A DNA stretch of 64,000 nt from an uncultured Chloroflexia bacterium (lineage in GTDB: Bacteria; Chloroflexota; Limnocylindria; Limnocylindrales; CSP1-4), in the NCBI GenBank assembly GCA_963825545.1, contig CAWGTR010000006.1:223475-287474 (forward strand), given 5' to 3'. Of this stretch, positions 17,040 to 44,460 are shown in pieces (positions within the stretch are counted from its first letter, which is position 1; every line of letters begins with the position of its first letter). The notes beneath the pieces are model-generated. The model was not told where the DNA came from. It did no database searches and saw only the letters and a program-made list of their open reading frames with translations. A program made the position numbers and the translations under genes.

Positions 17040-17046
17040 GCGGGCG

Positions 17047-24608: not shown

Positions 24609-24620
24609 GGAGACAGTCAG

Positions 24621-25859
24621 GTGGCCAAGACCGGGAAGAACGGAACCAACGGCACGAACGGCGCGAAGCCGGCTGCCGGCGCGGCGCGCCGGACCGACGG
24701 CAAGATCCGGGTCGCGATCGTCGGGGTGGGGAACTGCGCCAGCAGCCTCGTCCAGGGTCGTTACTACTACGAGAACGCGAAGAAGGAGGACTTCGTCCCC
24801 GGCCTAATGCACGTCGAGCTCGGCGGGTACCACGTTCGCGACATCGAGTTCGTCGCCGCGTTCGACATCGACAAGAACAAGGTCGGCAAGGACCTCTCCG
24901 AGGCGATCTACCAGAAGCCGAACAACACCTACGTCTTCCAGCAGGTCCCGCACATCGGGGTGACCGTCGACCGCGGAATGACCCACGACGGGCTCGGCAA
25001 GTACCTCAGCCAGATCATCGAAAAGGCGCCCGGCCCGACGGCCGACGTCGTCGGGATCCTCCGCGAGCGCGAGGTCGACGTGATGGTCTCCTACCTGCCG
25101 GTCGGCAGCGAGGAGGCCACGAAGTGGTACGTCGAGCAGGCGCTCAAGGCGGGCGTCGGGTTCGTGAACGCCATCCCGGTGTTCATCGGCCGCGAGCCGT
25201 ACTGGCAGCGGCGCTTCGCCGAGGAGGGCCTGCCGGTCATCGGTGACGACATCAAGAGCCAGGTCGGGGCCACGATCAGCCACCGCGTCCTGACCCGCCT
25301 GTTCATGGACCGCGGCGTCCGCCTCGACCGGACCTACCAGCTCAACTTCGGCGGCAACACCGACTTCCTCAACATGCTCGAGCGCGAGCGTCTCGAGTCG
25401 AAGAAGATCTCGAAGACGAACGCGGTCACGAGCATGCTCGACTACGAGGTCGACCCCGATGACGTCCACGTCGGCCCGAGCGACCACGTTCCGTGGCTGC
25501 TCGACCGGAAGTGGTGCTACATCCGGATGGAGGGCACGACCTACGGCGACGTGCCGCTCAACGCCGAGCTCAAGCTCGAGGTCTGGGACAGCCCGAACAG
25601 CGCCGGCGTGATCACCGACGCGATCCGCTGCCTCAAGCTCGGCCTCGACCGCGGGCTCACCGGAACCCTGGTCGCGCCGTCGAGCTACTTCATGAAGAGC
25701 CCGCCAATCCAGATCCACGACGACATCGCGTTCAACCGGGTCGAGGCGTTCATCCGGGGCGAGGACAACGAGACCCTCGTCGGCACGGAGGCTCCGCAGA
25801 AGCGGACGCTCAGGCGGCTGGCCGGGCCGAAGGCGAAGGTGGCGGCCGGAGCCCGGTGA
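24621..25859 (+). CDS. ino1: myo-inositol-1-phosphate synthase
   Basis: 412 aa; ...[18 protein letters not shown]...[33 protein letters not shown]...[26 protein letters not shown]... are bacterial/archaeal MIPS signatures. Confidence 0.9.
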
Positions 25860-26872
25860 CCTCGGTCCCGGATCGGCCCGTGGCCGGCGGGCCGATCGAC
25901 CCTGGACCGCGACCCGCACTCGAGAGGCCCAACCGGCGCGTCGCGAGCGCGCCACGGGTCGTCGAGAAGACGGCGGTGCTCGCCTACCGGCTGGCCGAAT
26001 GGCTCGTCGCCCGGCTGCCGACCGGGCCGACGGCGCGTGTCGTCGGCTGGTTCGTCCAGGGGTCCTACCTGCTCTGGCCGACGAAGCGGCGCTGGTCCAA
26101 CCGCAACTTCGGCCATGTCCTCGGGCTGCCGCCCGACGACCCGGCGGTGCGGCGGATGGCGCTCCGGGCGTACCGGAGCTACGCCCGCTACCTCGTCGAG
26201 CTCCTTCAGCTCCCGTCGCTGAGCCAGGAGCGGGCGATCGGCCTGATCGACCAGGCCGCCGTCGACGACGTCGAGCGGCTGTGGCGGGGCTCGAACGGGC
26301 TGATCTTCGCGGCCTGCCACGTCGGGAACAACGAGATCATCGCCGCGGCCATCGGGTGGCGCGGCTGGCCGTTGGCGGGGCTGGCCGACGACTCGACGTT
26401 CCCCGAGCTGTTCGAGCATCTCCGCGCGGAGCGAGCCCGCTGGAACGCCCGGGTGATCCCGTGGCGCAACCTGCGCGAGGTCTACGCGGTCCTCCGACGG
26501 CGCGAGATGCTCGCCCTGCTGGTCGACTGGGGCTATCGGGCGGATGACGTCCCGGTCCGCCTGTTCGGCGCCTGGACGACCCTGCCGGCCGGACCGGCGA
26601 CGCTCGCCGGAAAGACCGGAGCGCTCATCGTGCCGGTCGCCATCCGGCGGCTGCCCGACGGCCGGTTCCACGCCTCGACCGAGCCACCGATCCAGGTGGC
26701 GTCGACCGAGCCGGCCGAGGTCCTGCGCGCTACGCAGGCCATCGCCGACGCGATCGAAGGGGTGATCGCGGCCGCTCCCGAGCAGTGGTACAGCTTCAAG
26801 CCGATATGGCCCGAGACCGCGGCCGAGGCCGCCGAGCTGGAGCGGCGTGCCGCCCGGATGGCCGCCGGATGA
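25856..26872 (+). CDS. LpxL/HtrB-family lysophospholipid acyltransferase (PIM acyltransferase PatA-like), copy 1
   Basis: GTG start overlapping the ino1 stop. ...WLVARLP...[30 protein letters not shown]...[13 protein letters not shown]... is the lipid-A-acyltransferase fold with the HxxxxN region. Confidence 0.7.
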
Positions 26873-27870
26873 GCCGCGCAACGGCCGCCCCGGCCGCCGG
26901 GATCCCGGCGAGCGAGCGATCCACCGCCCGGCAGCGGATCGTCGCCGACGCCGTGACCGCCGCGTCGTGGCTCGCCTGCCATCTGCCCGAGCGACCGCTC
27001 GTCGGGCTGGCCGAGCTCGTCGGCGAGCTGTGGTACCTGGTCGACCGGCGGCGTGCCGAGCAGGCTCGCCGCAACCTGCGCCGGGTGACCGGCTGGATGG
27101 TGGCCGAGGGTCTTGCCGACGCACGGATCCGCGCGGCGTCCCGCGGCGGGCGGGCGCTCGACCGGTTGGTCCGGGCGGCGTTCCGCCACTACGCCACCTA
27201 TTACCTCGACGTTGCCCGGGCACCCGCGCTGACGCCCGCCTATCTCGCCGAGCGGCTGACGATCGAGACGCCGGAAGCGTTCGACGACGCCTTTGGCGAG
27301 CCCGGGCCGCGGATCTTCCTCGGGCTCCACTTCGGAGCGATCGAGCTGCAGGCGTACGTCGCCGCCGTCCACGCCGCGCGGCCGCTGACCACGCCGATGG
27401 AGACGGTCGACGATCCGGCTCTCCAGCGCTACTTCGTCCGGACGCGCGGCGCGCTCGGGATCCGGATCGTCGGGCTGCGCGAGGCGCGCCGCGAGGTCCT
27501 CGCCGCCCTCGGCCGTGGCGAGCCCGTCGGGATCGTCGGGGACCGCGACCTGACCGGCGGCGGAATGCCGGTCACGCTGTTCGGATCGCGCGCGTCGCTG
27601 CCCCTCGGCCCGGCGCTCGTGGCCATCGAGAGCGGCGCGCCGACGTTCGCGGTGACGGCGCGCCGGCTGCCGGGCGGGCGCTACGTCGGCCGGCTCGACC
27701 GGCTGGCCATCCCGGCCGCCGGCTCGCGGCGCGAGCGCGTGTCGGCCTTCCTCGACGAGGAGGCGCGCTGGTTCGAGCGCCAGGTCAGCGCCGCCCCGGA
27801 GCAGTGGTGGGCGGTCTTCTTCCCGATCTGGCCCGATCTCGAGGCCGCTCCGGCCGGGATCCGGCGATGA
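26869..27870 (+). CDS. LpxL/HtrB-family acyltransferase, copy 2 (tandem paralog)
   Basis: ATGA overlap with copy 1. ...LVDRRRAEQARRNLRRVTGW...IFLGLHFGAIEL...VGIVGDRDLTGGGMPVTLFGSRASLPLGPALVA... shares the same family. Confidence 0.7.
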   Translation: MSRATAAPAAGIPASERSTARQRIVADAVTAASWLACHLPERPLVGLAELVGELWYLVDRRRAEQARRNLRRVTGWMVAEGLADARIRAASRGGRALDRLVRAAFRHYATYYLDVARAPALTPAYLAERLTIETPEAFDDAFGEPGPRIFLGLHFGAIELQAYVAAVHAARPLTTPMETVDDPALQRYFVRTRGALGIRIVGLREARREVLAALGRGEPVGIVGDRDLTGGGMPVTLFGSRASLPLGPALVAIESGAPTFAVTARRLPGGRYVGRLDRLAIPAAGSRRERVSAFLDEEARWFERQVSAAPEQWWAVFFPIWPDLEAAPAGIRR

Positions 27871-28688
27871 CCGATCGGCTGGGTCGCGCCGACCTGCACA
27901 TCCACACGCTGGCATCGGACGGGATCTCCGGGATCGACGAGATCCTCGACCGGGTCGAGACGGTCGGCGAGCTCGACGTGATCGCCATTACCGACCACGA
28001 GCGGATCGACGCGGCGCTGGCCGCCCGGACGATCGCCCGCGATCGCGGCGCCCCGTTCGAGGTCGTCATCGGCGAGGAGGTCACCACCCGCGGCGGCCAT
28101 CTCCTCGCCCTGTTCATCGAGTCCCCGGTCCGCTCGCTGCGCTCGCTGCGCTCGACGATCGCCGAGATCCACGACCAGGGCGGCCTGGCCATCCCGGCGC
28201 ACCCGCTCGTTCCGTACCCGCTGTGCGCCCAGGGGTTCGTGCTGCGGCGGCTGCTCGGCGAGTCGGACCCGCGCTACCACCCGGACGGGCTCGAGACATT
28301 CAACCCGACGACCCTCGGTCGGCCGCTCCACGCCCGGGTCGTGCGCTTCGCCGTCGACCACGACCTGGCCCAGATCGGCGACAGCGATGCCCATGCGGCG
28401 GTGTCGATCGGTACGGGCTGGACGACCTTCCCGGGCCGTGGCGCCGACGATCTCCGGGCCGCGATCCTCGCGCGCGAGACGCACGCGCACGGGAGCTTCC
28501 ACGGCACCGGCAACCAGGTGTCGACGTTCGGGCGGCAGCTCCGCAAGTACGGCCGCGACGTGCGCGACGAGGTGCGCGGCCGGGTCCGTCGGGACGGCAC
28601 CGGGCGGGACCACGGCTACCCGGGCGGCCGGGCCCGACCGCCACGCTACGAGCCGGGAGCCGTGGCCGGTCCGGAGCACGGACGATGA
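27867..28688 (+). CDS. PHP-domain metal-dependent phosphoesterase (histidinol-phosphatase family)
   Basis: MTDRLGRADLHIHTLASDGISGIDEILD...DVIAITDHERID...EVTTRGGHLLALF...IPAHPL...IGDSDAH; the HxH...H/D PHP ligand pattern is present. ATGA overlaps on both sides. Confidence 0.7.
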   Translation: MTDRLGRADLHIHTLASDGISGIDEILDRVETVGELDVIAITDHERIDAALAARTIARDRGAPFEVVIGEEVTTRGGHLLALFIESPVRSLRSLRSTIAEIHDQGGLAIPAHPLVPYPLCAQGFVLRRLLGESDPRYHPDGLETFNPTTLGRPLHARVVRFAVDHDLAQIGDSDAHAAVSIGTGWTTFPGRGADDLRAAILARETHAHGSFHGTGNQVSTFGRQLRKYGRDVRDEVRGRVRRDGTGRDHGYPGGRARPPRYEPGAVAGPEHGR

Positions 28689-29917
28689 AGATCGGGCTGG
28701 TGACGCCGTACGTGTACCCGGTTCCGGGCGGCGTCAACGAACACGTCCGCTACCTCTACGAGAACCTGCGCCTGCACGGACACGACGTCCGGATCATCAG
28801 CAGCAGTCACGGCCTCCAGCGCGCCTCCGAGGGCGACATCATCCGGCTCGGGAAGGGCTTCAGCGTCCCGATGAACGGCTCCGTCGGAACGGTTACCCTC
28901 TCGCCGCGCTACGTGGGCCTGGTCGACGAGATGCTCGACCGCGAGCGGTTCGACGTCCTGCACTTCCACGAGCCGTTCGTGCCGTTCCTGTCGCTCATCC
29001 TGCTGCGCCGGTCGCGGAGCGTGAACGTCGCGACGTTCCACGCCTACGCCGGGTTCTCGCTGTCCTACGAGTTCGGGGCGCGCGTCATGCAGGGCCACGC
29101 CCGGCTGCTCCATGGCCGAATCGCCGTCAGCGCAGCGGCGCGGCACTTCATCGACCGCTACTTCCCGGGCGACTACAAGATCATCCCCAACGGCGTCGAC
29201 GTCGACCGCTACCGGAAGGCGGTCCCGATCGCGCGCTGGCAGGACGGCACGCGCAACCTCCTGTTCGTCAGCCGCCTCGAGCCGCGCAAGGGAGTGCTCG
29301 TCCTGCTCAAGGCGTACCGGATCCTGCGCAAGACCGGTTGCCCATGCCGGCTCCTCGTCGTCGGTTCCGGACCGCAGGAGCGCGAGGCTCGGCGCTACGT
29401 GATGACCCGCCGGCTGGCCGGGGTGGAGTTCCTCGGCCGGGTGAGCGACGCGGAGAAGGCCCAGCTGTTCCGCACGGCCGACGTGTTCGTGGCCCCGGCG
29501 ACCGGTCGCGAGTCGTTCGGGATCGTGCTCCTCGAGGCGATGGCCGCCGGCGCGCCGATCGTGGCCTCGGACATCCACGGCTACAAGGGCGTCGTCCGGC
29601 GCGGCGAGCAGGGCCTGCTCGTGCCACCGGGCGAGCCGCGCGAGCTCGCCGCGGCGATCGGGCGGCTCGTCGTCGACGACAGCCTGCGCGCTGACATGAG
29701 CGCGAGCGGGATGGCCCGGGCCGAGACGTTCAGCTGGGAGCGGATCACCGAGCGTGTCGAGAGCTACTACGGCTTCGTGATCCGCCGGCTCGCGGCCCAG
29801 GGCGCCTTGCCGGCGGACTTCCGGGCCGAGATCCCGCCCTCGCCGCGCGTCCAGCCCGCGATCGCAGACTCCGACGGAACGGTCGAGGAACCCTCGGTCA
29901 TCGCCCGCCGCGGCTAA
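28685..29917 (+). CDS. pimA: GT4 glycosyltransferase, phosphatidylinositol alpha-mannosyltransferase PimA-like
   Basis: MKIGLVTPYVYPVPGGVNEHVRYLYENLRLHGHDVRII...FHEPFVPF...LLFVSRLEPRKG...ESFGIVLLEAMAAGAPIVASDIHGY; the GT-B EX7E region is present. It is the last gene of the pgsA-ino1 operon. Confidence 0.8.
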   Translation: MKIGLVTPYVYPVPGGVNEHVRYLYENLRLHGHDVRIISSSHGLQRASEGDIIRLGKGFSVPMNGSVGTVTLSPRYVGLVDEMLDRERFDVLHFHEPFVPFLSLILLRRSRSVNVATFHAYAGFSLSYEFGARVMQGHARLLHGRIAVSAAARHFIDRYFPGDYKIIPNGVDVDRYRKAVPIARWQDGTRNLLFVSRLEPRKGVLVLLKAYRILRKTGCPCRLLVVGSGPQEREARRYVMTRRLAGVEFLGRVSDAEKAQLFRTADVFVAPATGRESFGIVLLEAMAAGAPIVASDIHGYKGVVRRGEQGLLVPPGEPRELAAAIGRLVVDDSLRADMSASGMARAETFSWERITERVESYYGFVIRRLAAQGALPADFRAEIPPSPRVQPAIADSDGTVEEPSVIARRG

Positions 29918-29951: not shown

Positions 29952-32900
29952 TCAGCCGGCCTGGCCGGTTGTCACGATCGAGCCAGGGTCGCGGCGCGCC
30001 GCCTCGCGCTCGGCCGCGGCGATCCGCCAGGCCCACGCGGCGTAGCCCACGATCACGCTCGTAACGAGCAGCGCGGCCAGGAGCAGGAGCACGTCGGCGA
30101 GGTGAGCCGTGATCGAGAACGGAACGACCTTGTCGGTGTTGACGGGGAACTGGAACGCGTACAGGTAGGTCGGCAGGAGGCCCTGGTACGCGTTCACGAT
30201 CGCGGCCGGCAGCGGGAGCCCCGAGATGTTCGGATACCACGTGACGAACCAGACGACGCAGGCGAGCATGATCCCTGCCGCGAACCGGCGGCTGTCGCGC
30301 GCGGTAGCCACGACCCAGGCGATCGGCGACAGGGCGATGAGGACGACGAGGGCGATCGGCTCGATTCGGAAGCCGTCCTGGCTCAGGATCGCGGTGTCCG
30401 GCAGGAACCCGCCAACGAGGATGAGCCCGATCGCCCCGCCGACGGCGGTCGCGGCGATCTGGAGGAACCGCCGATTCGCCTCCTCGGCCGATCGGTTGCC
30501 CGAACCGAGCCGGAGGATCTGGACGACAAGCAGCGCGCCGGCGACGAGCAGGATCGCGGCCAGCCCGGCGGTCCGCCAGGTCAGGACGATCTGCCCCGGG
30601 GCCGTCGCGACGCAGGCCTCCGAGCCCGGGTTGACCGCCGTGACCCGCACGAACGTGCACAGCGGGCCCTTGAACAGCCACATGAGAGCCGGGCCGAGGA
30701 CCGCGATCGCCGCGCTCACCCGGGCCAGCGCCCAGGTCCGTGCCGACGGCCCGTTCCGGAGCTCCGCGACGAAGTAGGCGAGGGCGATCAGCAGGAACGG
30801 CACCGCCGCGTAGTAGTGGTACTGGAAGGTGGCCCGGTCGATCCGCGCCCAGGGCAGCCACTGGAAGGCAAACGCGACGAAGACGAGCCCGAGGGCCAGG
30901 CTCCGGCGCTTGAACGCCTGCCAGGCCACGAACAACATCGCCGGGATCGACAGCCACCAGGCGACGAGGTTCCCCGCGTCGTAGATCGCCGCGGACGTGT
31001 TGGCCGCGAACGAGTCCTGGTAGAACCAGACCGGCTTGAGGTCGAGCGGCCAGGCCCAGTACGGCGACGACGCCGCATGGGTCGCCCGGAGCCCGTTGTG
31101 GTAGTCGTACATCTGGCGGGTCAGCGCGAGCAGCGTCTGGCCCGTGTTGCCGGGCGGCCACGTATCGGTGAGCCGGTTGCCCAGCGCCACCCAGGGCAGG
31201 TATGAGATCACGTAGACGACGATCGGGACCACCGCCAGGCAGATCACGCCCCATACGATCGGGAGGCCGAGGAGCGTCCCTGGTCGGAGCCAGCCCTCGG
31301 GCGGCGGGGACCCGGGCTCGGTGAGCCGGACCGGGTCGTCCGGGTCGGGCGGCAGCGCCAGCGGCCCGAGCCCCCAGATGCCGGCGAATCGCAGGATCGC
31401 CCAGACCACGCCCGAGCCGAGGATGAGCAGGAGCGAGATCACCGTCGGCGTCAGGGCCGCCGGGCCCGCGCCGATCGGCTTCACGGCGATGCCGAGCGGG
31501 ACCGCGATGAGGAACACCAGGATCCCGATCGCAGCCGGACCCACGATCGCGAGACGGGTCTCCTCGGCCGACCAGGCGATCGGACGGAAGACGGTCACGA
31601 GGACGGCCCCGAGCGTCAGGGCGATCATCAGCGCGACGAAGAGGAAGTTGCCGGCGCTCGTCGAGGCGTCCGGGGCGATGTCGATCGCCATGTAGCCTAG
31701 CACGGCCGTCCCGAGCGCCAGCCCGAGGATGAGCAGGATCCGGCCGAGCGCGGAGCGGCCCAGGATGAGCACGACGACGCCGGCCATGGCGTACAGCCCG
31801 ACCCATTTCGAGGCGAGCGCGAACCCAAGCAGCACGCCCACCGCGGGCAGCACGACCCAGAACGCCCACGGCCGTTTCCAGCGTCCGAGCCAGAGCGGTG
31901 CGAACAGGGTGTAGGCGGCCACGATGAAGAGGCCGACGTAGACGTCGTTCATCGCGATCCGGCTCTGCACGAAGAGCATTCCGTCGACCAGGACGAGAAT
32001 GGCGGCGATGACCGCGATCTCGCGACGCCGGAACAGGATCCGCACGAGCAGGAAGATGAGCCCGGCCGTGAGCGCCCCGGCGAGCATTCCCGGCAGGCGC
32101 CAGGCGAACGCGTGGTTGCCTGAGTCGACCGTGGCGAGCATCCCGTCGGCGGACGTGGCCAGGATCGCCTGGCGGTCGCCGCTCGGGTTCTCCGGGTTGG
32201 CGTCGAGCGCCCAGGCCTGCGCGTCGAACGGCAACCGGGCATCCGCATAGACCGCATTGCCGTGCGGCTCGACGACGTAGATCGTGTCGCTCGTCCCGTC
32301 CGGGGTCCGACCCAACACGTGGACCATCTGGGTCGGCTGGTCGTACACGAGGTCCCGGACGTCACCCGGCATCGGGAACGTCGTCGTCAGGTGCGGCCCC
32401 TCCTTGCCGTCGCCCTGCCCGAGCTGGATGACGGCCACGTTCTTGCCTTCGAGGGCCGCGTACAGGGTGGGCTGGTCGATCCCCGTCACGACGGTCAGGC
32501 CGCGGGCGGCGCCGTCGAGCGTCACGGTGTCCACGATCTGGCCCGTGGCCGGCGAGATGAACGTCACGCCGCCCTCGTCCGCGACCGCGATCCGCGGCAG
32601 CGGCGCGACCGTCAGCCCGGTCAGGCGGCCGTCCGAGATCGCGGTCGAGATGTCCTTCTGTTGCTGGTCGTCGGTGAACCCGCCGAGCAGGACCACCGCG
32701 GCCTCCCCCGCCGACGTGGCGGCCGTCAGTCGAGCCTGGTAGTCGGCGGCGTTCCCGCCGGTGATCGTGGCCAGGGCCGCGGACACGGCGGCCGGGTCGG
32801 TGACGGCCGTCGGGTCTGCCGTCAGCCCGTCGCCCAGTCCGCCGTCGGCGAGATCCGAGACGCCGCCGAGCCGCTGCCGGCCCGTCTCGGCGCCCGTGCT

Positions 32901-35396
32901 CGGGTCGACGAGGACGACCTCGCCACCACTCGTGGCGACCGCCATCCCGGAGGCGTCGGTGGTCAGCCCGAGATGCGTCACCGGCGCCTTCACGTCGGCC
33001 AGCGGCGCCGGCCCGTCGACGCTGGTGATCGGCGTTTCGGCGCTGTACCCGCCTGACGCCCGGGCGTCGTCGAGCACCGTCGTGTCGAGCGCGAGCACCT
33101 GGCCGCTGTCCGTGCCGACGAGGACGCGGTGACCGACGGGATCGAGCGTGAGGGCCGACGCCCCCGGCACCGACCAGGTCGTGATCAGGCCGCGGGTCAC
33201 CAGGTCGTAGGCCCGCAGCTCGTCGCCGCCGGCGACGTAGAAGCGGTCCCCGGACGGCGGGGACGGCCGGCTCGAGTCGACCCACTGCGGCTCGACGAGC
33301 ACGTCGCGGACCGTCGTGCCCAGCGAGCGCTGCGCGGTCACCCGGTCGTCCCCGGCGACGATCAGCCCGGCGGCCATCGCGTACTTGGCGATGTGGGGGT
33401 GGGTCCACTCGTAGATGTCGTGTGGCATCCCGTAGCGCCAGTCCTGGAGGAACTCCGTGGCGGTCCGCGCGTGGTAGACCTCGTCGAAGTGCATGCGGTA
33501 CGGCTCCGACAGCCGGAACGTCCGCGATACCAGGGCGACGAGCACGATCACCACGAGCAGCCACAGGTCGAGCCGGTCGAGCCGCCCGCCGCCCTCGCCG
33601 TGGAGTCGACGCGACCGATCGGGCAGGAGGGTCCGGATCCGGGCCAGCCCGAACGGCAGCGGCAGCCAGCCCGGGTCACGCTCGGCCGCGAACGAGGCTT
33701 CGTCCCACGCGATCGCCGGGCCGGCGCTTGGAGGGGCCGCCACCACCCGTCCGGCGACGGCACCGCCGGCCGCGGTCGTGGCCGCCACCGCCTCGCCGGC
33801 GGTCCCGGGGCCGCCCGAAGGGGCGCTCGTGTCGCCGCCGATCCACCCTCCGTCGGTCGCGTCGGCAGCGACGGCGTCCTCGTCCGCCTCCCAGAGCGCG
33901 GCGTCGATCGCCTCGCGATCCAGCCGTCGGAGCGCGGCGGGACGCAGCTCGGTGACCGCGAACACGAAGGCCGCGAAATGGATCGCCGCGACGGTCGCCA
34001 CCCCGACCGGGGATCGGATCGCGTCGGCCATGCCCAGCCAGTCCTTGATCCCGGGGTTCTGGAAGTACGGGATCAGGAGGACCGCGTACAGGTTCGCGAA
34101 GTTGGCCAGCGAGAGCAGGACGTAGGCCACGCGCCAGCGAACCGACGTGGCGGCGAGGATGGCGCCGAGGATGGCGAACGGGAAGAGGTACCGCTCGTGG
34201 ACCCGGGTGGGCACGACGAAGAACGCGATCGCCATCACCGTCAGCGCGACGAGGAGCAGCCGCCGGTCGTCGACGATGGCCCGGATCCGCTCGCCGCCCG
34301 AGCCTTCGTCGATGGTCACGATCGACGGCCGGTCCAGCCAGCCGACGACGAGGCAGACCGCCGCGATGACGATCAGCAGCAGCGCGGTCCCGACGTACAG
34401 CGCAGGGACGCCGGCGATGAGCGTCGCGACCTCGGCGGCGGTCGCCCCGGCGACGTCGCGCAGCCATTGGCCGTTCTCCGCCAACCCGTTGCCGCCGCGG
34501 CTGATCAGCGCCCACGGGTTATAGGCGTTGACGGTGATGTACGGGTAGCCGCCGGCCGTCTTGCCGACCTGCTCGACGAGCCCCACGATCGACAGGCCGA
34601 ACGGGAGGCACAGGAGGACCGCCGTCGCGAGCCCGACGCCGGCGCTCGTGACCAGCCGCAGCGGACCTTCGCCGAAGCGGTCGAGCCACGGCTCGCCGCG
34701 CGGTCCCGGCTGGGCGTCGGCCAGCGGGACGTCCCCTCCGGCTCCCGCCGGCGCAGGCGGCGCGGGCGGTCGCAGGCGATCCCACACGTGGCGCCGCAGC
34801 AGGACGATCGCCAGGATCGGCAGGAGGATCCCGAGCTGCGGCTTGATGACCGCGGCGAGCACGGCGAAGAACGTCGCCCGCTCGGGCCGGCGCCGCCACA
34901 GGTCGCGCAGGCCGAGCAGCAGGAAGATCACCCCGAAGGCGTCGACCTGGCCCCAGATCGCACTGTCGAACCAGGTGACCGGGTTGACGAGCACGAACGC
35001 GGCGCCGAGCAGGGCGGCCCGGCGCGATCCACCGAGCTCGCGGACCAGGGAGTGGACCAGCCATGCGAGGACGACGTCGGCGAGGATCGGGGGCAGCTTG
35101 ATCAGGTCGCCGATGCCCCCGATCGCGTTCCCGACGATCCCCACGAGCCACAGCACGTAGAGGTAGCCGGGCGTGTAGTCGACGAAGAAGCCCCGGTTGT
35201 AGAAGCCCCCCGGACCGTGCGTCGCGAGCTCGTTCGCCCAGGCCTGGAAGGAGCCGCGGTCCGCTCCGAACCCGGAGCCGGGGAGCAGGACGTATGCGAT
35301 GATGAGGCGGAGGGCGAGGCCGACGATCAGGATCGCGATGAGCGCCAGGGCGGCCTCGAACGACCGCCTCGGCGCCGCGGTGCCTCGGTCGGGCAC
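29952..35396 (-). CDS. giant (1814 aa) polytopic membrane glycosyltransferase: N-terminal GT-C module, then a Pmt-like (GT39) module with a ~500-aa beta-propeller-like insertion and a C-terminal 4-TM domain
   Basis: Single uninterrupted frame with a GTG start. Module 1 (aa 1-470): ...YYNRGFFVDYTPGYLYVLWLVGIVG... with ~10 TM helices. Module 2 opens with a TM helix and the loop-1 motif HFDEVYHARTATEFL (PMT DE motif). A long soluble repeat-rich insert follows (YDLVTRGLITTWSVPGASALTLDPVGHRVLVGTDSGQVLALD...), then many TM helices and a PMT_4TMC-like tail. Confidence 0.65.
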   Translation of the reverse strand: MPDRGTAAPRRSFEAALALIAILIVGLALRLIIAYVLLPGSGFGADRGSFQAWANELATHGPGGFYNRGFFVDYTPGYLYVLWLVGIVGNAIGGIGDLIKLPPILADVVLAWLVHSLVRELGGSRRAALLGAAFVLVNPVTWFDSAIWGQVDAFGVIFLLLGLRDLWRRRPERATFFAVLAAVIKPQLGILLPILAIVLLRRHVWDRLRPPAPPAPAGAGGDVPLADAQPGPRGEPWLDRFGEGPLRLVTSAGVGLATAVLLCLPFGLSIVGLVEQVGKTAGGYPYITVNAYNPWALISRGGNGLAENGQWLRDVAGATAAEVATLIAGVPALYVGTALLLIVIAAVCLVVGWLDRPSIVTIDEGSGGERIRAIVDDRRLLLVALTVMAIAFFVVPTRVHERYLFPFAILGAILAATSVRWRVAYVLLSLANFANLYAVLLIPYFQNPGIKDWLGMADAIRSPVGVATVAAIHFAAFVFAVTELRPAALRRLDREAIDAALWEADEDAVAADATDGGWIGGDTSAPSGGPGTAGEAVAATTAAGGAVAGRVVAAPPSAGPAIAWDEASFAAERDPGWLPLPFGLARIRTLLPDRSRRLHGEGGGRLDRLDLWLLVVIVLVALVSRTFRLSEPYRMHFDEVYHARTATEFLQDWRYGMPHDIYEWTHPHIAKYAMAAGLIVAGDDRVTAQRSLGTTVRDVLVEPQWVDSSRPSPPSGDRFYVAGGDELRAYDLVTRGLITTWSVPGASALTLDPVGHRVLVGTDSGQVLALDTTVLDDARASGGYSAETPITSVDGPAPLADVKAPVTHLGLTTDASGMAVATSGGEVVLVDPSTGAETGRQRLGGVSDLADGGLGDGLTADPTAVTDPAAVSAALATITGGNAADYQARLTAATSAGEAAVVLLGGFTDDQQQKDISTAISDGRLTGLTVAPLPRIAVADEGGVTFISPATGQIVDTVTLDGAARGLTVVTGIDQPTLYAALEGKNVAVIQLGQGDGKEGPHLTTTFPMPGDVRDLVYDQPTQMVHVLGRTPDGTSDTIYVVEPHGNAVYADARLPFDAQAWALDANPENPSGDRQAILATSADGMLATVDSGNHAFAWRLPGMLAGALTAGLIFLLVRILFRRREIAVIAAILVLVDGMLFVQSRIAMNDVYVGLFIVAAYTLFAPLWLGRWKRPWAFWVVLPAVGVLLGFALASKWVGLYAMAGVVVLILGRSALGRILLILGLALGTAVLGYMAIDIAPDASTSAGNFLFVALMIALTLGAVLVTVFRPIAWSAEETRLAIVGPAAIGILVFLIAVPLGIAVKPIGAGPAALTPTVISLLLILGSGVVWAILRFAGIWGLGPLALPPDPDDPVRLTEPGSPPPEGWLRPGTLLGLPIVWGVICLAVVPIVVYVISYLPWVALGNRLTDTWPPGNTGQTLLALTRQMYDYHNGLRATHAASSPYWAWPLDLKPVWFYQDSFAANTSAAIYDAGNLVAWWLSIPAMLFVAWQAFKRRSLALGLVFVAFAFQWLPWARIDRATFQYHYYAAVPFLLIALAYFVAELRNGPSARTWALARVSAAIAVLGPALMWLFKGPLCTFVRVTAVNPGSEACVATAPGQIVLTWRTAGLAAILLVAGALLVVQILRLGSGNRSAEEANRRFLQIAATAVGGAIGLILVGGFLPDTAILSQDGFRIEPIALVVLIALSPIAWVVATARDSRRFAAGIMLACVVWFVTWYPNISGLPLPAAIVNAYQGLLPTYLYAFQFPVNTDKVVPFSITAHLADVLLLLAALLVTSVIVGYAAWAWRIAAAEREAARRDPGSIVTTGQAG

Positions 35397-35398: not shown

Positions 35399-36847
35399 AT
35401 GTGGGGGAAGCCAGGGAGGTCCGCCTCCTGCACGGGCGCTGAGGTGGAGCGGAGTATAGCGCAGGGTCCCGCGACGGACGCCCGAGCGAGCCGCCTCCCC
35501 GACCTCCGATCCGGGACCGCCAGGACGGTCGCGGTCGGCCTCGCGATCACCGCGTTGATGCTCGCGGTGTATGTCGTCAGCAACCCCACCCGGGACAGCT
35601 ACTACAACCATTTCGTGTGGCAGGCCGAGGCGTTCCTCGACGGCCGCGCCACCATCCGCTACCCGGTCGCGGACCAGCCCGGGATCCACGGCGACAACCT
35701 GTTCCAGGACGTCCTCCTTGCGCCGGGGCCGCACGGCGAGCCAACCGGCTACGCGCTGCTGCCGTTCCCGCCCCTGCCGGCTGTGATCCTCATGCCGTTC
35801 GTCGCGATCTGGGGCCTGGCCACGGACGCCCAGCTGATCGCAGCGATCCTCGGCGCGCTGGTCGTTGGCATCGCCTTCTGGGTCCTCGGACGCCTGCCGA
35901 TCGCTCCGCGGGTCCGGGTCGCCAGCACGCTCTTCCTCGGCCTGGGCACCGTCTTCTGGTACACGTCCGAGCTGGGGACGACGTGGTACCTCGCGCACGT
36001 CGTCGCCGTCGGGTTCACCCTTCTCGCGATCGGGGTCGCGTTGCGCGGCGATCCGCTCGCGGCGGCAGGAGAACCCGATCCCGAGCCCGATTCGACCCGC
36101 CGCCGGCTCGTGCTCGACCCGGGTCAGGTGTTCGCCGGGTTCCTGTTCGGGCTCGCCTGCACCGCCCGGCTGACCGTGGTCTTCGGCCTGCCGTTCTTCG
36201 TGTTCGTCGGCGGGGGCGGCGACCGCCTTCGGCGTGGCGTGTCGGCCGTCGTCGGCATGGCTGTCCCGATCGGTGCCCTGATCGCCTACACCTACGCCAC
36301 GACCGGGCAGCTGATGAACCCGGGCTACGACGTGCTGTACCACCTCGAGACGGTCTTCTATCCCCAGCTCGGCTACCACAGCGGCTGGGGAATCGAGGAT
36401 CCACGTTACCTCGCCCAGAACGTGCCGCTCATGCTCGCCGGGCTTCCGTCGATCCTGCCTGCCTGCCCGCCGGATGCCGTGCGCGGCTGGTTCGATCCGG
36501 CCTGCCCCGTGATCGCGCCGCGCGACGTGGGGATGGGGCTGTTCCTGACCAGCCCGGCCTGGCTGGTGTCGTTCGCGTCGCTGCGCTGGTTCGGCCGGGA
36601 TCGCCTGGTCACCGGGGCGGTCATCGCCGTCGCGCTGATCGCCCTCGTCGACGTGATGCACTTCAGCCAGGGCTGGGTCCAGTTCGGCTACCGGTTCAGC
36701 AACGACTACGCGCCGTTCGCCCTCCTCCTTTTCGCCTTGGCGCTCGAGGCTGGACGCCGGACCCGGCGGCTCGGCTACGTGCTCATCGCGATCTCGATCG
36801 CGATCGTCACCTGGGGCGTGGCCTGGGGCCACCTCTTGGGATGGTGA
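35399..36847 (+). CDS. GT-C fold membrane glycosyltransferase (ArnT/PMT_2-like), start uncertain
   Basis: 482 aa at most. ...YYNHFVWQAEAFLDGRATIRYPVAD... opens a ~12-TM GT-C-like protein. The ATG at 35399 abuts the divergent giant gene start (35396), so the real start is probably downstream (e.g. GTG 35444). The stop overlaps the next gene (ATGGTGA). Confidence 0.55.
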   Translation: MWGKPGRSASCTGAEVERSIAQGPATDARASRLPDLRSGTARTVAVGLAITALMLAVYVVSNPTRDSYYNHFVWQAEAFLDGRATIRYPVADQPGIHGDNLFQDVLLAPGPHGEPTGYALLPFPPLPAVILMPFVAIWGLATDAQLIAAILGALVVGIAFWVLGRLPIAPRVRVASTLFLGLGTVFWYTSELGTTWYLAHVVAVGFTLLAIGVALRGDPLAAAGEPDPEPDSTRRRLVLDPGQVFAGFLFGLACTARLTVVFGLPFFVFVGGGGDRLRRGVSAVVGMAVPIGALIAYTYATTGQLMNPGYDVLYHLETVFYPQLGYHSGWGIEDPRYLAQNVPLMLAGLPSILPACPPDAVRGWFDPACPVIAPRDVGMGLFLTSPAWLVSFASLRWFGRDRLVTGAVIAVALIALVDVMHFSQGWVQFGYRFSNDYAPFALLLFALALEAGRRTRRLGYVLIAISIAIVTWGVAWGHLLGW

Positions 36848-38403
36848 TCGCCGCGCGCCCCGCAGGGCCGACGACCGGGCTCGTCCTCGCCGCGCTGGGG
36901 TCGGCCGTCTTCGCCCTGGCGATCGCCGTCCCGACGCTCCTGCCCGGCGTGTCGTTCTGGGACACGGCCGAGCTGCAGACGGTCGGGCCGCTGCTCGGGA
37001 CGGCGCACCCGACCGGCTTCCCGACCTGGGTGATCCTCGGCTGGCTCGCATCGATCGTGTTCCAGCCGCTCGGCGACCCGGCGTTCCGGATGAACCTGCT
37101 CAACGCCGTCTGCCTGGCCGTGGCCGCCGCCCTGATGGCCGTGCTCGTCCATCGGCTGACCGCGCGCGCCTGGCTCGCCTTCGCCTTCGGCGTGGTCCTG
37201 GCGGCGACACCGATCGCCTGGTCGATCGGGACCCATGCCGACGTTCACGGGCTTCATCTCGTCCTGTGCGCCCTCCTGCTCATCCTGCTCGTCGACTGGG
37301 AACGGCTCGAGCGGTCGGGGGCTGCCGGCGCGGACCGCCGCCTGGTGGCCGCGACGATCGTCTTCGCCCTCGCGCTCGGGAACCACAGCCTCGTGCTCCT
37401 GTTCGTGCCCGGGATCGTCCTGTTCGTGTTCGCGGTCGCGCCGTCGATCCTCGGCCGTCGCCGGCTGGTCGGGGCCTGCGTGGCGGCCCTTGCCGGGACG
37501 CTCGTCGTCGTGTACCTCGAGCTGCCGGTCCGCGCCGGGCTCATGCCGGCGCCGCTGGTGTACGGCCATCCCGACACCTGGGCGGGGTTCTGGTACATCG
37601 TCCTGGCAGAGCAGTTCCAGGGCAGCCTCATCGACCCGCTGGGCGAGCTCCCCCAGAAGGCGGCGACGCTCGTTCGCTTCAGCGGCGACCAGCTCGGACC
37701 ACTCGCCTTGCTGGTCCCGCTCGGGTTCGCGGCGACGATCGTCCGCCGGCCGCGCTACGCGGTGCTGACCGGCCTGACTCTGGCGATCACCTGCTTCTTC
37801 GCGGTGTCCTACGACAACGCCCAGATCGACCGCTACTACCTCGTACCGGCGCTCATCGCGCTGAGCTGGGTGGCGGTCCTCTTGGCGACGGTCGTCGACT
37901 GGCTCGAGCGGCGGATCGTGCCGGGCGGGCTCGATCGCCATGGGGACCGGGCGCCGCGGCCGGTCGTCGGGCTCCTCCTCGCCGCGCTCGTCGTCGTTCC
38001 GACAGCGGTGCTCCTGCCGGCGCGCTGGCAGGCAGTCGACCAGAGCGCGAACCGATCGGGCGACGCATGGCTCGACGCGCTGCTCGACGAGCGGGTCGCC
38101 GGCCCCGGGGCGGTGATCGTCTCGTGGTGGAGCTACTCGACCCCGCTATGGTACGCGCAGCACATCGACGACCGGCGACCGGACATCCGGGTCGTCGACG
38201 ACCGGACCCGCCTCGACGAGAACCTCGGAGCCATCAGCGACGTGATCGACAGCAACCTCGGACGCCACCCCGTCCTCGTCATCCAGGTCGACCCGGCTAT
38301 CGTCGGCTCGCTCATGGAGCGCTACCGGCTGACGCCCCTGCCCGTTCCGGGCTCGCAGGTCGTGTACCGGGTCGACGGGGTCCTCGCCGCGGCCAATCGA
38401 TGA
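36841..38403 (+). CDS. DUF2723/TMEM260-like GT-C membrane glycosyltransferase
   Basis: 520 aa. N-terminal signature VSFWDTAELQTVGPLLGTAHPTGFPTWVILGW is DUF2723-like, followed by ~10 TM helices and a soluble C-terminal domain. Confidence 0.6.
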   Translation: MVIAARPAGPTTGLVLAALGSAVFALAIAVPTLLPGVSFWDTAELQTVGPLLGTAHPTGFPTWVILGWLASIVFQPLGDPAFRMNLLNAVCLAVAAALMAVLVHRLTARAWLAFAFGVVLAATPIAWSIGTHADVHGLHLVLCALLLILLVDWERLERSGAAGADRRLVAATIVFALALGNHSLVLLFVPGIVLFVFAVAPSILGRRRLVGACVAALAGTLVVVYLELPVRAGLMPAPLVYGHPDTWAGFWYIVLAEQFQGSLIDPLGELPQKAATLVRFSGDQLGPLALLVPLGFAATIVRRPRYAVLTGLTLAITCFFAVSYDNAQIDRYYLVPALIALSWVAVLLATVVDWLERRIVPGGLDRHGDRAPRPVVGLLLAALVVVPTAVLLPARWQAVDQSANRSGDAWLDALLDERVAGPGAVIVSWWSYSTPLWYAQHIDDRRPDIRVVDDRTRLDENLGAISDVIDSNLGRHPVLVIQVDPAIVGSLMERYRLTPLPVPGSQVVYRVDGVLAAANR

Positions 38404-39176
38404 CCGACCCGGCGGCGAACCCGGATCGCCTCGCGGAGCTGTCGTACTTCTTCCCGGCCCACAACGAGGAGGCCAACCTCGAGCCGCTCGTGACGGAGGC
38501 GCTGGCGACCCTGCCCGAGCTCGCCGGCCGTTTCGAGGTCGTGATCGTCGACGACGGCTCGCGCGATGCCACTGCCGAGATCGCCGATCGACTTGCCGCC
38601 GCCCATCCTGACCTCGTCCGTGTGGTCCACCACGAGACGAACCGCGGCTACGGAGCCGCGTTGCGGTCCGGCTTTCGGGCCGCGAGATTCGGCTACGTCG
38701 CCTTCACCGACGGCGACCGGCAGTTCAAGATCGCCGACCTGGCCCGGCTGACGGCCCGGATGGGCGCCCCCGACCGACCCGACGTCGTGATCGGTTTCCG
38801 CATCCGACGGGCGGACCCGATCATCCGGACGATCTACGCCCGGTCCTACCGGCTGGCGAACCGGGTCTTCTTCGGGCTGCGGGCGACCGACGTCGACTGC
38901 GCCTGCAAGCTCTACCGGCGCGAGGCGCTCGACGGGATCCGGGTCGAGTCCGGCGGCGCCTTCCTGTCCGCCGAGCTGCTGATCAAGCTCCGGGCACGCG
39001 GCCGATCCGTCGTCGAGGTCGGCGTCCCGCACTACCCACGCACGGCCGGCTCACCGACCGGGGCCCGGCCGCAGGTGATCGTCCGGGCCGTTCGCGACTT
39101 CTGGATGCTCCGGCTGCGGATGTGGGCGTCGCGGGACCGGGCGCTGTCGCGCGGGGCATCGATCCTGGGCGACTGA
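38400..39176 (+). CDS. GT2 polyprenol-monophosphomannose synthase-like (Ppm1/Dpm1 catalytic domain)
   Basis: ATGA overlap with the DUF2723 gene. LSYFFPAHNEEANLEPLV...EVVIVDDGSRDATAEIADRL...VRVVHHETNRGYGAALRSGF...YVAFTDGDRQF... is the GT2 DxD/Dpm1 pattern. Confidence 0.8.
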   Translation: MTDPAANPDRLAELSYFFPAHNEEANLEPLVTEALATLPELAGRFEVVIVDDGSRDATAEIADRLAAAHPDLVRVVHHETNRGYGAALRSGFRAARFGYVAFTDGDRQFKIADLARLTARMGAPDRPDVVIGFRIRRADPIIRTIYARSYRLANRVFFGLRATDVDCACKLYRREALDGIRVESGGAFLSAELLIKLRARGRSVVEVGVPHYPRTAGSPTGARPQVIVRAVRDFWMLRLRMWASRDRALSRGASILGD

Positions 39177-42953: not shown

Positions 42954-43271
42954 TTATACCCGCCGCACCCGGACGCGAAGCCCGCTCGCCCCGAACCCGC
43001 CAGGGGCGTTCCGGAAGGCCCCGAGGAGCTCGGGGCCTCGCATCCGCAGCTCCTGGGCCACGATCGGCGCGTCGGTCTCCACGAGCAGCGCATCGCCCTC
43101 CAGGCCGACCAGGCGGCAGGCACCCGTGGCGGCCGGGACGCGCTCCGCCACGAGGGCGTCCCAGGTCGTCGTCGCGCGTGCCAGGCGGAGTTCGGCCTCG
43201 AGCCCGAGCGCTCGGGCGGCGGCCGGGAGGAGGTCGCCGATCCGCTCCATCGGCCGTCGGCGGGAGGTCAT
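42954..43271 (-). CDS. DUF721 (DciA-like) protein
   Basis: 105 aa; LGLEAELRLARATTTWDALVAERVPAATGACRLVGLEGDALLVETDAPIVAQELRMR is the DUF721 pattern, in the position immediately after recF that is conserved in Actinobacteria. Confidence 0.6.
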   Translation of the reverse strand: MTSRRRPMERIGDLLPAAARALGLEAELRLARATTTWDALVAERVPAATGACRLVGLEGDALLVETDAPIVAQELRMRGPELLGAFRNAPGGFGASGLRVRVRRV

Positions 43272-44452: not shown

Positions 44453-44460
44453 CCGGCCTC

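What the first reader, a model, noticed from the sequence alone, without database searches (positions are those of the whole stretch)
29952..35396. 1814-aa tandem GT-C glycosyltransferase: N-terminal GT-C module fused to a Pmt-like protein O-mannosyltransferase carrying a ~500-aa beta-propeller-like insert
This is one continuous frame with ~25 predicted TM helices. The second half has Pmt hallmarks: the loop-1 DE motif in HFDEVYHARTATEFL and a C-terminal 4-TM block. It also carries a long soluble repeat-rich insertion (VLVGTDSGQVLALD..., GGEVVLVDPSTG...) where eukaryotic PMTs have MIR domains, and is preceded by a complete additional GT-C module. Bacterial Pmts are ~500 aa, so this fusion and insertion is atypical. 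It could couple two sequential polyprenol-P-sugar-dependent transfers.
Basis: partly seen in the sequence, partly recalled or inferred. Interest (0 to 1): 0.6.

Follow-up and report, generated by a model that had tools for sequence, protein, structure and literature searches.

The report
Two-in-one membrane glycosyltransferase with propeller
This is a real 1,814-residue membrane enzyme, conserved in hundreds of uncultured Chloroflexota (Limnocylindria) species, that fuses two lipid-sugar-dependent glycosyltransferase modules, one of them a protein-O-mannosyltransferase-type core with a seven-bladed propeller next to its active site; the parts are known kinds but I found no paper describing this combination.

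Summary
The ORF (29952-35396, minus strand) is real and is not a misjoin. Codon bias is uniform along its length. The full-length architecture recurs in all 80 best genome hits, out of at least 592 species genomes with a relative, at 46-94% identity, all Chloroflexota / Ca. Limnocylindrales.

- **aa 1-515:** a 12-TM GT-C module. Its fold resembles ALG6, PIG-M and ALG3, and Pfam gives borderline GT87/ALG6 hits.
- **aa 609-1575:** a divergent GT39/PMT core. All four catalytic positions are invariant and align to yeast Pmt1.
- **aa ~684-1092:** a WD40-like, roughly seven-bladed beta-propeller inserted in external loop 1. The propeller carries a small subdomain resembling the N-terminal module of class-B penicillin-binding proteins.
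- **aa 1576-1814:** a 5-TM extension with no family match.

A polyprenyl-phosphate-sugar synthase (GT2) is its most persistent neighbour. A PimA/PatA/inositol-lipid operon adjoins it within the class, but not in one more distant relative.

Most likely it is a bifunctional enzyme acting on the outer face of the membrane: O-mannosylation of proteins held by the propeller, plus a second sugar transfer. A lipomannan-like glycolipid synthase is the main rival. It is a new variant of a known kind, and its function is untested.

The parts
29952..35396 (-). Whole gene, 1814 aa plus stop: tandem GT-C enzyme
   Evidence: Continuous ORF. GC3 is 0.88-0.98 throughout. The full-length architecture is conserved in 80/80 best genome hits and in more than 120 protein clusters.
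33852..35396 (-). N-terminal GT-C module, aa 1-515, about 12 TM helices. Invariant outward-facing motifs: D46, D73-Y-T-P-G-Y78, W142/D144/D152, K185-P-Q187, P396-TRVHERY403.
   Evidence: AlphaFold model pLDDT 85.8, pTM 0.87. Foldseek vs PDB: ALG6 E 1e-5, GPI-MT-I, ALG3, PIG-U, STT3, Emb, PglB. Pfam GT87 21.7 bits in the window protein, below the cutoff of 25. Among 9 relatives GT87 hits 5 (2 above cutoff) and Alg6_Alg8 hits 3 (1 above cutoff). Invariant residues.
33573..33851 (-). Low-complexity Ala/Gly/Pro-rich linker, aa 516-608, predicted cytoplasmic and partly disordered
   Evidence: pLDDT below 50 for aa 519-560 and poorly conserved. In one divergent relative (L084) the gene is split exactly here.
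33348..33572 (-). PMT TM1 plus the two EL1 helices, aa 609-683, with the catalytic D638-E639 (codons 33480-33485)
   Evidence: DE is invariant, lies at the start of the first EL1 helix, and aligns to ScPmt1 D77-E78.
32121..33347 (-). WD40-like beta-propeller (about 7 blades, 28-30 strands), aa 684-1092, inserted in external loop 1
   Evidence: All-beta at pLDDT about 90-96. The Foldseek top 50 are all WD40/BamB propellers, TM-score by target 0.65-0.75 for single propellers such as G-beta, TLE1 and ATG16L1. WDR18 hit by PDB profile, E 1e-4. Excising it restores a contiguous PMT match.
32553..32855 (-). Alpha/beta subdomain looped out of the propeller (aa ~848-948; helices and strand at aa ~861-927), similar to the N-terminal non-catalytic module of class-B penicillin-binding proteins
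   Evidence: A profile of this stretch from 24 relatives hits PBP 4ovd residues 77-161 (E 3.9e-7) and PBP3 4ye5 (E 0.009), and weakly SpoVD and PBP1 (first seen). Pfam finds nothing consistent. The stretch is absent from relatives P0149 and P0161.
30672..32120 (-). PMT/GT39 membrane core after the insert, aa 1093-1575 (about 14 TM), including the PMT_4TMC block. Catalytic R1146...D1151 (EL2) and R1521-x-x-F1524.
   Evidence: Pfam PMT and PMT_4TMC. D1151 aligns to ScPmt1 D189, and R1521/F1524 to R649/F652. These are the residues shown essential in MtPMT (PMC12331936). All are invariant.
29955..30671 (-). C-terminal extension, aa 1576-1814: 5 TM helices, a conserved outward Cys pair (C1580, C1595) and the motif YPN...LPxP...QG..P....FQF. 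No family match.
   Evidence: Model helices, invariant residues, no Pfam hit. Missing in the minimal relative P0237.
38400..39176 (+). Associated gene (inferred donor supply): GT2 polyprenyl-phosphate-sugar synthase
   Evidence: Pfam Glycos_transf_2. The three best-scoring solved relatives are ArnC, followed among others by Dol-P-Man synthase and GtrB. It lies within ~3 kb of the giant gene in every locus that reaches far enough except two (L026, L044), and it stays adjacent in distant relatives that have lost the other neighbours.

Best explanation
One polypeptide carries two polyprenol-phosphate-sugar-dependent (GT-C) glycosyltransferase modules, and both active sites face the outside of the cytoplasmic membrane.

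Shown:
- The gene is real and conserved.
- The N-module has a GT-C fold with invariant acidic and basic motifs in its outward loops.
- The C-module is a divergent GT39/PMT with all four catalytic positions intact.
- A ~7-bladed propeller is spliced into external loop 1 about 45 residues after the catalytic Asp-Glu.
- A GT2 lipid-phosphate-sugar synthase is the constant neighbour.

Inferred:
- The GT2 loads a sugar, probably mannose, onto polyprenyl phosphate. The lipid-sugar flips to the outer face.
- The PMT module transfers the sugar, with inversion, to Ser/Thr hydroxyls of exported or membrane proteins. The propeller and its PBP-like subdomain hold these proteins over the active site, a role analogous to MIR domains in eukaryotic PMTs and TPRs in TMTCs.
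- The tethered N-module (GT87/ALG6-like) uses the same donor pool for a second transfer, either extending the O-linked sugar or decorating a nearby glycolipid.
- The fusion keeps the two sites side by side, as a covalent version of the dimers that PMTs form.
For: - **Real gene:**
- **PMT membership:** Pfam PMT and PMT_4TMC are above their cutoffs. The match becomes contiguous when the propeller is removed. phmmer against PDB finds Pmt4 (E 5e-9) and Pmt1 (E 7e-4), with D638E639 = D77E78, D1151 = D189 and R1521/F1524 = R649/F652. These positions are functionally validated in MtPMT and invariant in 70 relatives.
- **N-module:**. D46 is invariant and sits at the start of the first EL1 helix, the canonical place for the GT-C catalytic Asp (compare PimE D58).
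- **Topology:** a 12-TM N-module places the linker in the cytoplasm and the PMT DE motif outside. Arg-rich loops fall on the inner side throughout.
- **Propeller:**
- **Protein-type acceptor:** as far as I know, every characterised GT39 is a protein O-mannosyltransferase (established knowledge). Propellers and the PBP pedestal-like subdomain are typical protein-binding modules.
- **GT2 partnership:** the GT2 persists as a neighbour where the PIM operon does not. GT2 + GT-C pairs glycosylate Ser/Thr-rich regions of envelope proteins in other monoderms (PMC12041528).
Against: - No biochemical data exist for any member.
- The sugar is not identified. The GT2's best-scoring solved relatives are ArnC, with DPMS and GtrB lower, so it could carry something other than mannose.
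- The acceptor is inferred only by family precedent.
- The protein scores far below the NCBIfam Pmt equivalog cutoff. Its core has more TM helices than the canonical 11, so specificity may have shifted.
- In every Limnocylindria locus the gene abuts a PimA/PatA/inositol-lipid operon, and the N-module's nearest sequence family acts on PIM/lipomannan. Both points favour a glycolipid acceptor.
Confidence: 0.5

Rival explanations
1. Lipoglycan synthase. Both modules act on a phosphatidylinositol-anchored glycolipid made by the adjacent PimA/PatA/PIP-synthase/Ino1 operon. They extend it at the outer face into a lipomannan-like polymer, as PimE, MptA/B/C and Emb do in Actinobacteria. The propeller would be a glycan-binding or processivity domain, like the carbohydrate-binding domains of EmbC and AftD.
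For: - The neighbour GT4 is a full-length PimA homologue (E 6e-62; the next unrelated hit scores 79 bits).
- The acyltransferases hit only PatA in the PDB.
- A PIP-synthase-like gene and Ino1 are present.
- This operon abuts the giant gene in every Limnocylindria locus long enough to show it (also L001, L002 and L084).
- N-modules hit Pfam GT87, the PimE/Mpt family, and share PimE's list of structural neighbours, ALG6 and PIG-U.
Against: - The giant gene and the PIM operon are convergent, so they are separate transcription units.
- The entire ~25-kb block, including dnaN and recF, is syntenic, so adjacency may reflect ancestry rather than function.
- In the minimal relative (L086) the PIM operon is gone while the GT2 remains. 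In L087/L088 six unrelated genes separate them.
- I know of no GT39/PMT_4TMC enzyme that uses a lipid acceptor (established knowledge).
- I found no paper reporting PIMs or lipomannan in Chloroflexota.
Confidence: 0.3
2. Only the PMT module is catalytic. The N-module would be a non-enzymatic GT-C-fold partner, as PIG-U is in GPI transamidase. It would bind the lipid donor or a lipid-anchored substrate, or simply replace the second protomer of a PMT dimer.
For: PIG-U ranks 2nd, 3rd and 5th among fold matches, and PF06728 PIG-U is hit at sequence level. The window protein's GT87 score is below the cutoff. No PDB enzyme is detectable by sequence for this module. PMTs are obligate dimers (abstracts listed).
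Against: The N-module keeps a dense set of invariant charged and aromatic residues in every outward loop (D46, D73, D144, D152, K185, H400, E401, R402). D46 is in the canonical catalytic position. K185 and H400 resemble PimE's phosphate-binding K195 and H322, although that alignment was not tested. Conservation is as strong as in the PMT module.
Confidence: 0.12
3. Artefact: two adjacent genes merged by a sequencing error, a missed stop or a misassembly.
For: In one divergent relative (L084) the N-module and the PMT part are separate ORFs that overlap by 11 nt within the linker.
Against: The same continuous frame occurs in 80/80 best species genomes from independent assemblies and in more than 120 protein clusters. 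GC3 is uniform. Apparent N-module-less proteins such as P0123 are cut by contig ends.
Confidence: 0.01

Closest known systems
Protein O-mannosyltransferases, GT39 (yeast Pmt1/2/4, human POMT1/2, M. tuberculosis Rv1002c)
   Same: It has the Pfam PMT and PMT_4TMC domains. The DE motif sits at the start of the first EL1 helix. The EL2 Asp (= ScPmt1 D189 / MtPMT D176) and the R-x-x-F of the loop after the 4TMC start (= R649/F652) are present. The active site faces outward, and a lipid-phosphate-sugar donor is expected.
   Different: It is about 3.5 times longer than bacterial Pmts. It has no MIR domain. A propeller sits in EL1 instead of a beta-trefoil in the TM7-TM8 loop. The core has about 4 extra TM helices, followed by a 5-TM C-terminal extension. 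A second GT-C module is fused upstream. It scores about 10% of the NCBIfam Pmt equivalog cutoff.
PimE / GT87 and ALG6-type GT-C enzymes
   Same: The N-module has the GT-C fold with ALG6 as best match, and it shares PimE's list of structural neighbours (ALG6, PIG-U). Pfam gives borderline GT87 and Alg6_Alg8 hits. An invariant Asp sits at the first EL1 helix, and a Lys and a His lie in outward loops.
   Different: The window protein is below the Pfam cutoffs. It shows no sequence-level match to any solved structure. It is never free-standing in this clade but fused to a PMT. The acceptor is unknown.
GT-C enzymes with appended soluble acceptor-binding domains (PMT-MIR, TMTC1-4 TPRs, TMEM260, EmbA/B/C and AftD carbohydrate-binding domains)
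   Same: The logic is the same: a membrane GT-C core plus an extracytoplasmic domain that presumably selects or holds the acceptor.
   Different: Here the domain is a WD40-like propeller. It is inserted inside EL1 rather than appended at the C-terminus or placed in the TM7-TM8 loop, and it carries a PBP-pedestal-like subdomain.
GT2 + GT-C two-component glycosylation systems (GtrB/PgtC2, PgfS/PgfM1, GtrB/GtrA/Gtr*, ArnC/ArnT, Ppm1/Pmt)
   Same: A polyprenyl-phosphate-sugar synthase gene is the persistent neighbour. The GT-C partner acts outside the membrane.
   Different: The GT-C partner is a tandem of two different GT-C modules in one chain. I found no published example of this.

Membership tests
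GT39 / PMT | Pfam PMT (PF02366) and PMT_4TMC (PF16192) above their gathering scores | tested here: met
   53.7 bits (cutoff 22.7) and 50.8 bits (cutoff 32.4). With the propeller excised: 70.8 bits and 53.0 bits.
GT39 / PMT | Catalytic Asp-Glu at the start of the first helix of external loop 1 | tested here: met
   D638-E639 are invariant in 70 relatives. The helix starts there in the model. They align to ScPmt1 D77-E78.
GT39 / PMT | Second essential Asp in external loop 2 (MtPMT D176 / ScPmt1 D189) and the R-x-x-Y/F pair (MtPMT R441/Y444; ScPmt1 R649/F652) | tested here: met
   D1151 aligns to D189 in a significant alignment. R1521/F1524 align to R649/F652 in a sub-threshold alignment that lies inside the significant PMT_4TMC Pfam match. 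All are invariant. Their functional role is taken from PMC12331936.
GT39 / PMT | Canonical 11-TM core (7 + 4) | tested here: not met
   The model shows about 11 TM before the EL4-equivalent loop, then 4 (4TMC), then 5 more. This count comes from DSSP helices, not from a dedicated topology predictor.
GT39 / PMT | Orthology to bacterial Pmt (NCBIfam NF058602 equivalog, cutoff 800 bits) | tested here: not met
   54 bits for the whole protein and 85 bits with the propeller excised.
GT39 / PMT | Transfers mannose from polyprenyl-P-mannose to protein Ser/Thr | not testable with these tools
   Needs biochemistry. This is only family precedent.
Eukaryotic-type PMT | MIR beta-trefoil domain in the loop between TM7 and TM8 | tested here: not met
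   No MIR hit. The equivalent loop (aa ~1398-1476) holds only the conserved PMT_4TMC lead-in. The large insert is in EL1.
GT-C superfamily (N-module) | GT-C membrane fold | tested here: met
   Foldseek: ALG6 E 1e-5 (TM-score by target 0.62), GPI-MT-I 0.61, ALG3 0.67. STT3, Emb and PglB also match with probability 0.9-1.0.
GT87 (PimE/Mpt) (N-module) | Pfam GT87 (PF09594) above its gathering score of 25 bits | tested here: inconclusive
   The window protein scores 21.7 bits. Of 9 relatives, 5 hit GT87 and 2 of those are above the cutoff (32.8 and 28.5 bits). Others hit Alg6_Alg8 or PIG-U instead.
GT87 (PimE/Mpt) (N-module) | Catalytic Asp at the first juxtamembrane helix of EL1, and Lys/His that bind the donor phosphate | tested here: inconclusive
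   Invariant D46 is at the start of helix 44-60, and K185 and H400 lie in outward loops. No residue-level alignment to PimE D58/K195/H322 could be made.
WD40-like beta-propeller (insert) | Seven-bladed propeller fold | tested here: met
   28-30 strands at high pLDDT. The top 50 PDB matches are all propellers. Pfam WD40/PQQ sequence models are not reached; only weak Beta-prop_EML_2 and PQQ_2 hits appear.
Class-B PBP N-terminal (pedestal) module (subdomain) | Sequence similarity to the non-penicillin-binding module | tested here: inconclusive
   The profile hits 4ovd at E 3.9e-7, 4ye5 at E 0.009 and two more PBPs near E 1, all at the same N-terminal place. Pfam PBP_dimer is not detected. The fold was not compared separately.
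GT2 + GT-C two-component system | Adjacent polyprenyl-phosphate-sugar synthase gene | tested here: met
   GT2 at 38400-39176. It is present in 64 of 82 loci, and most of the rest are too short to reach it. It is retained next to the divergent relatives in L084, L086 and L087.

The most novel reading that the evidence does not exclude
The enzyme is a single-chain lipoglycan synthase in which a GT39-type module has switched from protein to a phosphatidylinositol-mannoside acceptor. Together with the adjacent PimA/PatA/Ino1/PIP-synthase operon it would build a lipomannan-like polymer. PIM/LM-type envelope glycolipids, regarded as an actinobacterial hallmark, would then also exist in Chloroflexota, made by a different and fused machinery.
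Probability: 0.25. Interest if true: 0.75.

Novelty: new variant of a known kind. Interest (0 to 1): 0.55.

Why it matters
GT-C enzymes build many of the extracytoplasmic glycoconjugates of cell envelopes, and they are normally single catalytic modules that work with separate partners. This gene offers three things:

- A natural covalent tandem of two different GT-C modules.
- A new way of attaching an acceptor-binding domain: a propeller spliced into the catalytic loop.
- A near-universal marker gene of a widespread uncultured class, in at least 592 species genomes.

If the two modules act in sequence, the protein would be a compact model for how lipid-linked-sugar transferases hand substrates to each other. 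It would also be a tractable cryo-EM target.

The linked PimA/PatA/inositol-lipid operon raises the testable possibility that Chloroflexota make PIM-like glycolipids. The protein sequences are already public but annotated only generically.

Tried and rejected
- **Frame error:** one Pfam scan of the C-terminal part (third query) was out of frame by one base and is void. It was repeated in frame.
- **PBP-like subdomain:** Pfam scans of this stretch from 8 relatives gave no consistent family.
- **N-module against the neighbouring 482-aa membrane protein:** no similarity by BLASTP. That protein has no Pfam, NCBIfam or PDB match.
- **N-module against NCBIfam:** nothing found.
- **Relatives lacking the N-module:** P0123 turned out to be truncated by a contig end. 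P0137 has the module as a separate upstream ORF. P0126, P0128, P0136 and P0152 were not checked.
- **Representative-library search:** the top 150 were all family members or fragments, so it did not reach free-standing relatives of either module.
- **Literature:** searches for tandem GT-C enzymes, Limnocylindria envelope glycosylation, PIMs in Chloroflexi and the NCBI product name found nothing relevant.
- **Rejected ideas:** a misjoin or missed stop, and a MIR-equivalent position for the insert.
Full report
**1.
An ORF of 1814 codons occupies 35396-29952 on the minus strand. In that frame third-position GC is 0.88-0.98 in every block of 100 codons, including the low-complexity linker. An identical protein lies on a 127-kb public contig. 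More than 120 protein clusters of 1700-1860 aa share the whole architecture at 49-73% identity. A scan of one genome per species found at least 592 genomes with a relative. The best 80 all match query residues ~1-1800 at 46-94% identity, and all are Chloroflexota / Ca. Limnocylindrales MAGs. Three short contigs carry other phylum labels and are probably mis-binned. A misjoin or a missed stop is excluded.

**2. Anatomy: the N-terminal module.**
- An AlphaFold model of aa 1-560, built on a 70-sequence alignment, has pLDDT 85.8 and pTM 0.87.
- Foldseek against the PDB returns ALG6 (E 1e-5), PIG-U, GPI mannosyltransferase I and ALG3, then STT3, Emb and PglB. This is a GT-C fold.
- At sequence level the window protein is just under the Pfam GT87 cutoff (21.7 bits against 25).
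- Among nine relatives, five hit GT87 (two above the cutoff), three hit Alg6_Alg8 (one above) and one hits PIG-U above its cutoff.
- No solved structure is detectable by sequence for this module.
- Reading the model helices with the positive-inside rule gives 12 TM helices with both ends in the cytoplasm. Every invariant polar motif then lies in an outward loop: D46 at the start of the first EL1 helix, D73-YTPGY, W142/D144/D152, K185-PQ and PTRVHERY (aa 396-403). D46 is where GT-C enzymes carry their catalytic Asp (PimE D58; PMC12041525).

**3. Anatomy: the linker and the PMT core.**
- aa 516-608 are a poorly conserved, partly disordered linker.
- From aa 609 the protein is a PMT. Pfam PMT and PMT_4TMC are above their cutoffs.
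- The model of aa 615-1814 has pLDDT 85.6 and pTM 0.87. It shows TM1, a helix starting at D638-E639, a second EL1 helix, about 410 residues of beta structure, and then the membrane bundle.
- Removing aa 685-1091 in silico turns the Pfam PMT hit into one contiguous match to profile positions 2-196 (70.8 bits). phmmer then finds Pmt4 (E 5e-9) and ScPmt1 (E 7e-4) in the PDB.
- In those alignments D638-E639 = ScPmt1 D77-E78, D1151 = D189 and R1521/F1524 = R649/F652. The last pair lies in a sub-threshold stretch.
- These are the positions shown by mutagenesis to be essential in M. tuberculosis PMT (D74, D176, R441, Y444; PMC12331936). All are invariant here.
- The protein is nonetheless far from the bacterial Pmt equivalog: 54-85 bits against a cutoff of 800. 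By helix count it has about 4 more TM helices in the core and a 5-TM C-terminal extension with a conserved outward Cys pair and no family match.

**4. Anatomy: the insert.**
- The insert is a WD40-like propeller of about seven blades. It has 28-30 strands at pLDDT ~90-96.
- The 50 best PDB matches are all propellers. TM-scores normalised by target are 0.65-0.75 for single propellers such as G-beta, TLE1 and ATG16L1.
- It sits in external loop 1, so it is extracytoplasmic and adjacent to the catalytic Asp.
- A small alpha/beta subdomain is looped out of the propeller (aa ~861-927). A profile of it hits the N-terminal non-catalytic module of class-B PBPs: 4ovd E 3.9e-7, 4ye5 E 0.009, and SpoVD and PBP1 weakly, all at the equivalent place. 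Pfam sees nothing there. Some relatives lack this subdomain.

**5. Context.**
- The flanks on one side encode a CDP-alcohol phosphatidyltransferase resembling PIP synthase, myo-inositol-1-phosphate synthase, two acyltransferases, a PHP-domain protein and a GT4.
- The GT4 is a full-length homologue of mycobacterial PimA (E 6e-62). The tested acyltransferase (26953-27870) hits only PatA among solved structures.
- On the other side lie, divergently, a 482-aa membrane protein of no known family, a TMEM260-like GT-C and a GT2. The GT2's best-scoring solved relatives are ArnC, with Dol-P-Man synthase and GtrB among the weaker matches.
- The order dnaN-recF-...-GT2-TMEM260-482aa | giant | PimA-PHP-PatA-PatA-Ino1-PIPsynthase recurs in essentially every one of 82 loci that is long enough. 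The 482-aa and TMEM260-like genes are occasionally lost.
- Because the whole origin-proximal block is syntenic, adjacency within the class is weak evidence for function. More distant relatives are more telling.
  - In L086 a minimal 1215-aa tandem GT-C keeps the GT2 next door but has no PIM operon nearby. It has a small insert and no C-terminal extension.
  - In L087/L088 the GT2 is adjacent while six unrelated genes separate the PIM operon.
  - In L084 the two modules are separate ORFs, in the same order, overlapping by 11 nt within the linker.
- The GT2 is therefore the persistent partner, and the two GT-C modules stay together whether fused or not.

**6. Mechanism.**
- Shown: two GT-C modules whose conserved polar motifs face outward, an intact GT39 catalytic set, a propeller beside that active site, and a lipid-phosphate-sugar synthase as the constant neighbour.
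- Inferred: the GT2 charges polyprenyl phosphate, probably with mannose. The PMT module transfers the sugar to Ser/Thr of exported proteins held by the propeller. The N-module performs a second transfer from the same donor pool. I put this at about 0.5.
- Main rival, about 0.3: both modules extend a PI-anchored glycolipid made by the neighbouring PimA/PatA operon. The GT87-like signature and the class-wide adjacency support it. The loss of that adjacency in distant relatives and the absence of any known lipid-acceptor GT39 weaken it.
- A non-catalytic, PIG-U-like N-module is possible, about 0.12, but it fits poorly with the dense invariant charged residues.

**7. Novelty.**
Searches of the literature found no description of tandem GT-C enzymes, of a PMT with a propeller, or of this family. 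Public annotations are generic, for example 'phospholipid carrier-dependent glycosyltransferase' and 'Gpi18-like mannosyltransferase'. Every part belongs to a known kind. The combination and the insertion site are new, so I rate it a new variant of a known kind with moderate interest (0.55).

Noticed in passing
window 23778-29917 (+): A complete early phosphatidylinositol-mannoside-type operon in a Chloroflexota genome. It holds a PIP-synthase-like CDP-alcohol transferase, Ino1, two acyltransferases of the PatA (Lip_A_acyltrans) family, a PHP-domain protein and a full-length PimA homologue (E 6e-62 to 2gej/4n9w). I found no paper reporting PIMs in Chloroflexi.
   Followed up: partly
window 27867-28688 (+): A PHP/PHP_C phosphoesterase sits between the PimA and PatA homologues in every related locus. 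It is a candidate for the phosphatidylinositol-phosphate phosphatase step, whose gene, to my knowledge, is not assigned in mycobacteria (my inference).
   Followed up: no
window 35399-36847 (+) and 36844-38403 (+): The divergent neighbours are a 482-aa polytopic protein with no Pfam, NCBIfam or PDB match and a TMEM260-like (DUF2723) GT-C. One or both are missing in about 10 of the related loci while the giant gene stays. The longest-ORF start of the 482-aa gene lies 2 nt from the giant gene's start, so at least one of the two starts is probably further in.
   Followed up: partly
window 40560-42842 (-): A conserved 760-aa protein with a weak PP2C-like N-terminus, one TM segment, a large C-terminal region of unknown fold and a Pro/Thr/Lys-rich tail (...PSPSAGASPAATPKPTPKATKKPKRTPKP). 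It is present in the same block in 61 of 82 loci and is a conceivable O-glycosylation substrate.
   Followed up: no
L084 7903-14320: In a relative at 37-40% identity, the N-module (702 aa, with extra sequence) and the propeller-PMT part (1439 aa) are separate ORFs that overlap by 11 nt inside the linker. This is either a natural split or a frameshift in that assembly.
   Followed up: partly
L085 1333-8505 (P0188) and L086 7336-10983 (P0237): The family varies in size. A 2390-aa form has about 900 extra residues between the two modules. A 1215-aa minimal form has a small insert, no extra core helices and no C-terminal extension.
   Followed up: partly
window 43268-47847 (-): recF, dnaN and dnaA lie 8-12 kb from the giant gene, so the locus is next to the replication origin. 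The ~25-kb block is syntenic across the class, which limits what gene neighbourhood can prove here.
   Followed up: yes
L029, L038, L039: Three short contigs (7.6-8.3 kb) carry full-length relatives but belong to MAGs labelled Verrucomicrobiia, Patescibacteria and Methylomirabilota. They keep the Limnocylindria gene order and are probably mis-binned.
   Followed up: no
window 5427-18519 (+), 48597-49910 (+), 50983-52827 (+), 61369-63981 (-): The rest of the window is ordinary chromosome: complex I (nuo) genes, YidC, a VanW/PG_binding_4 protein and SecA.
   Followed up: yes
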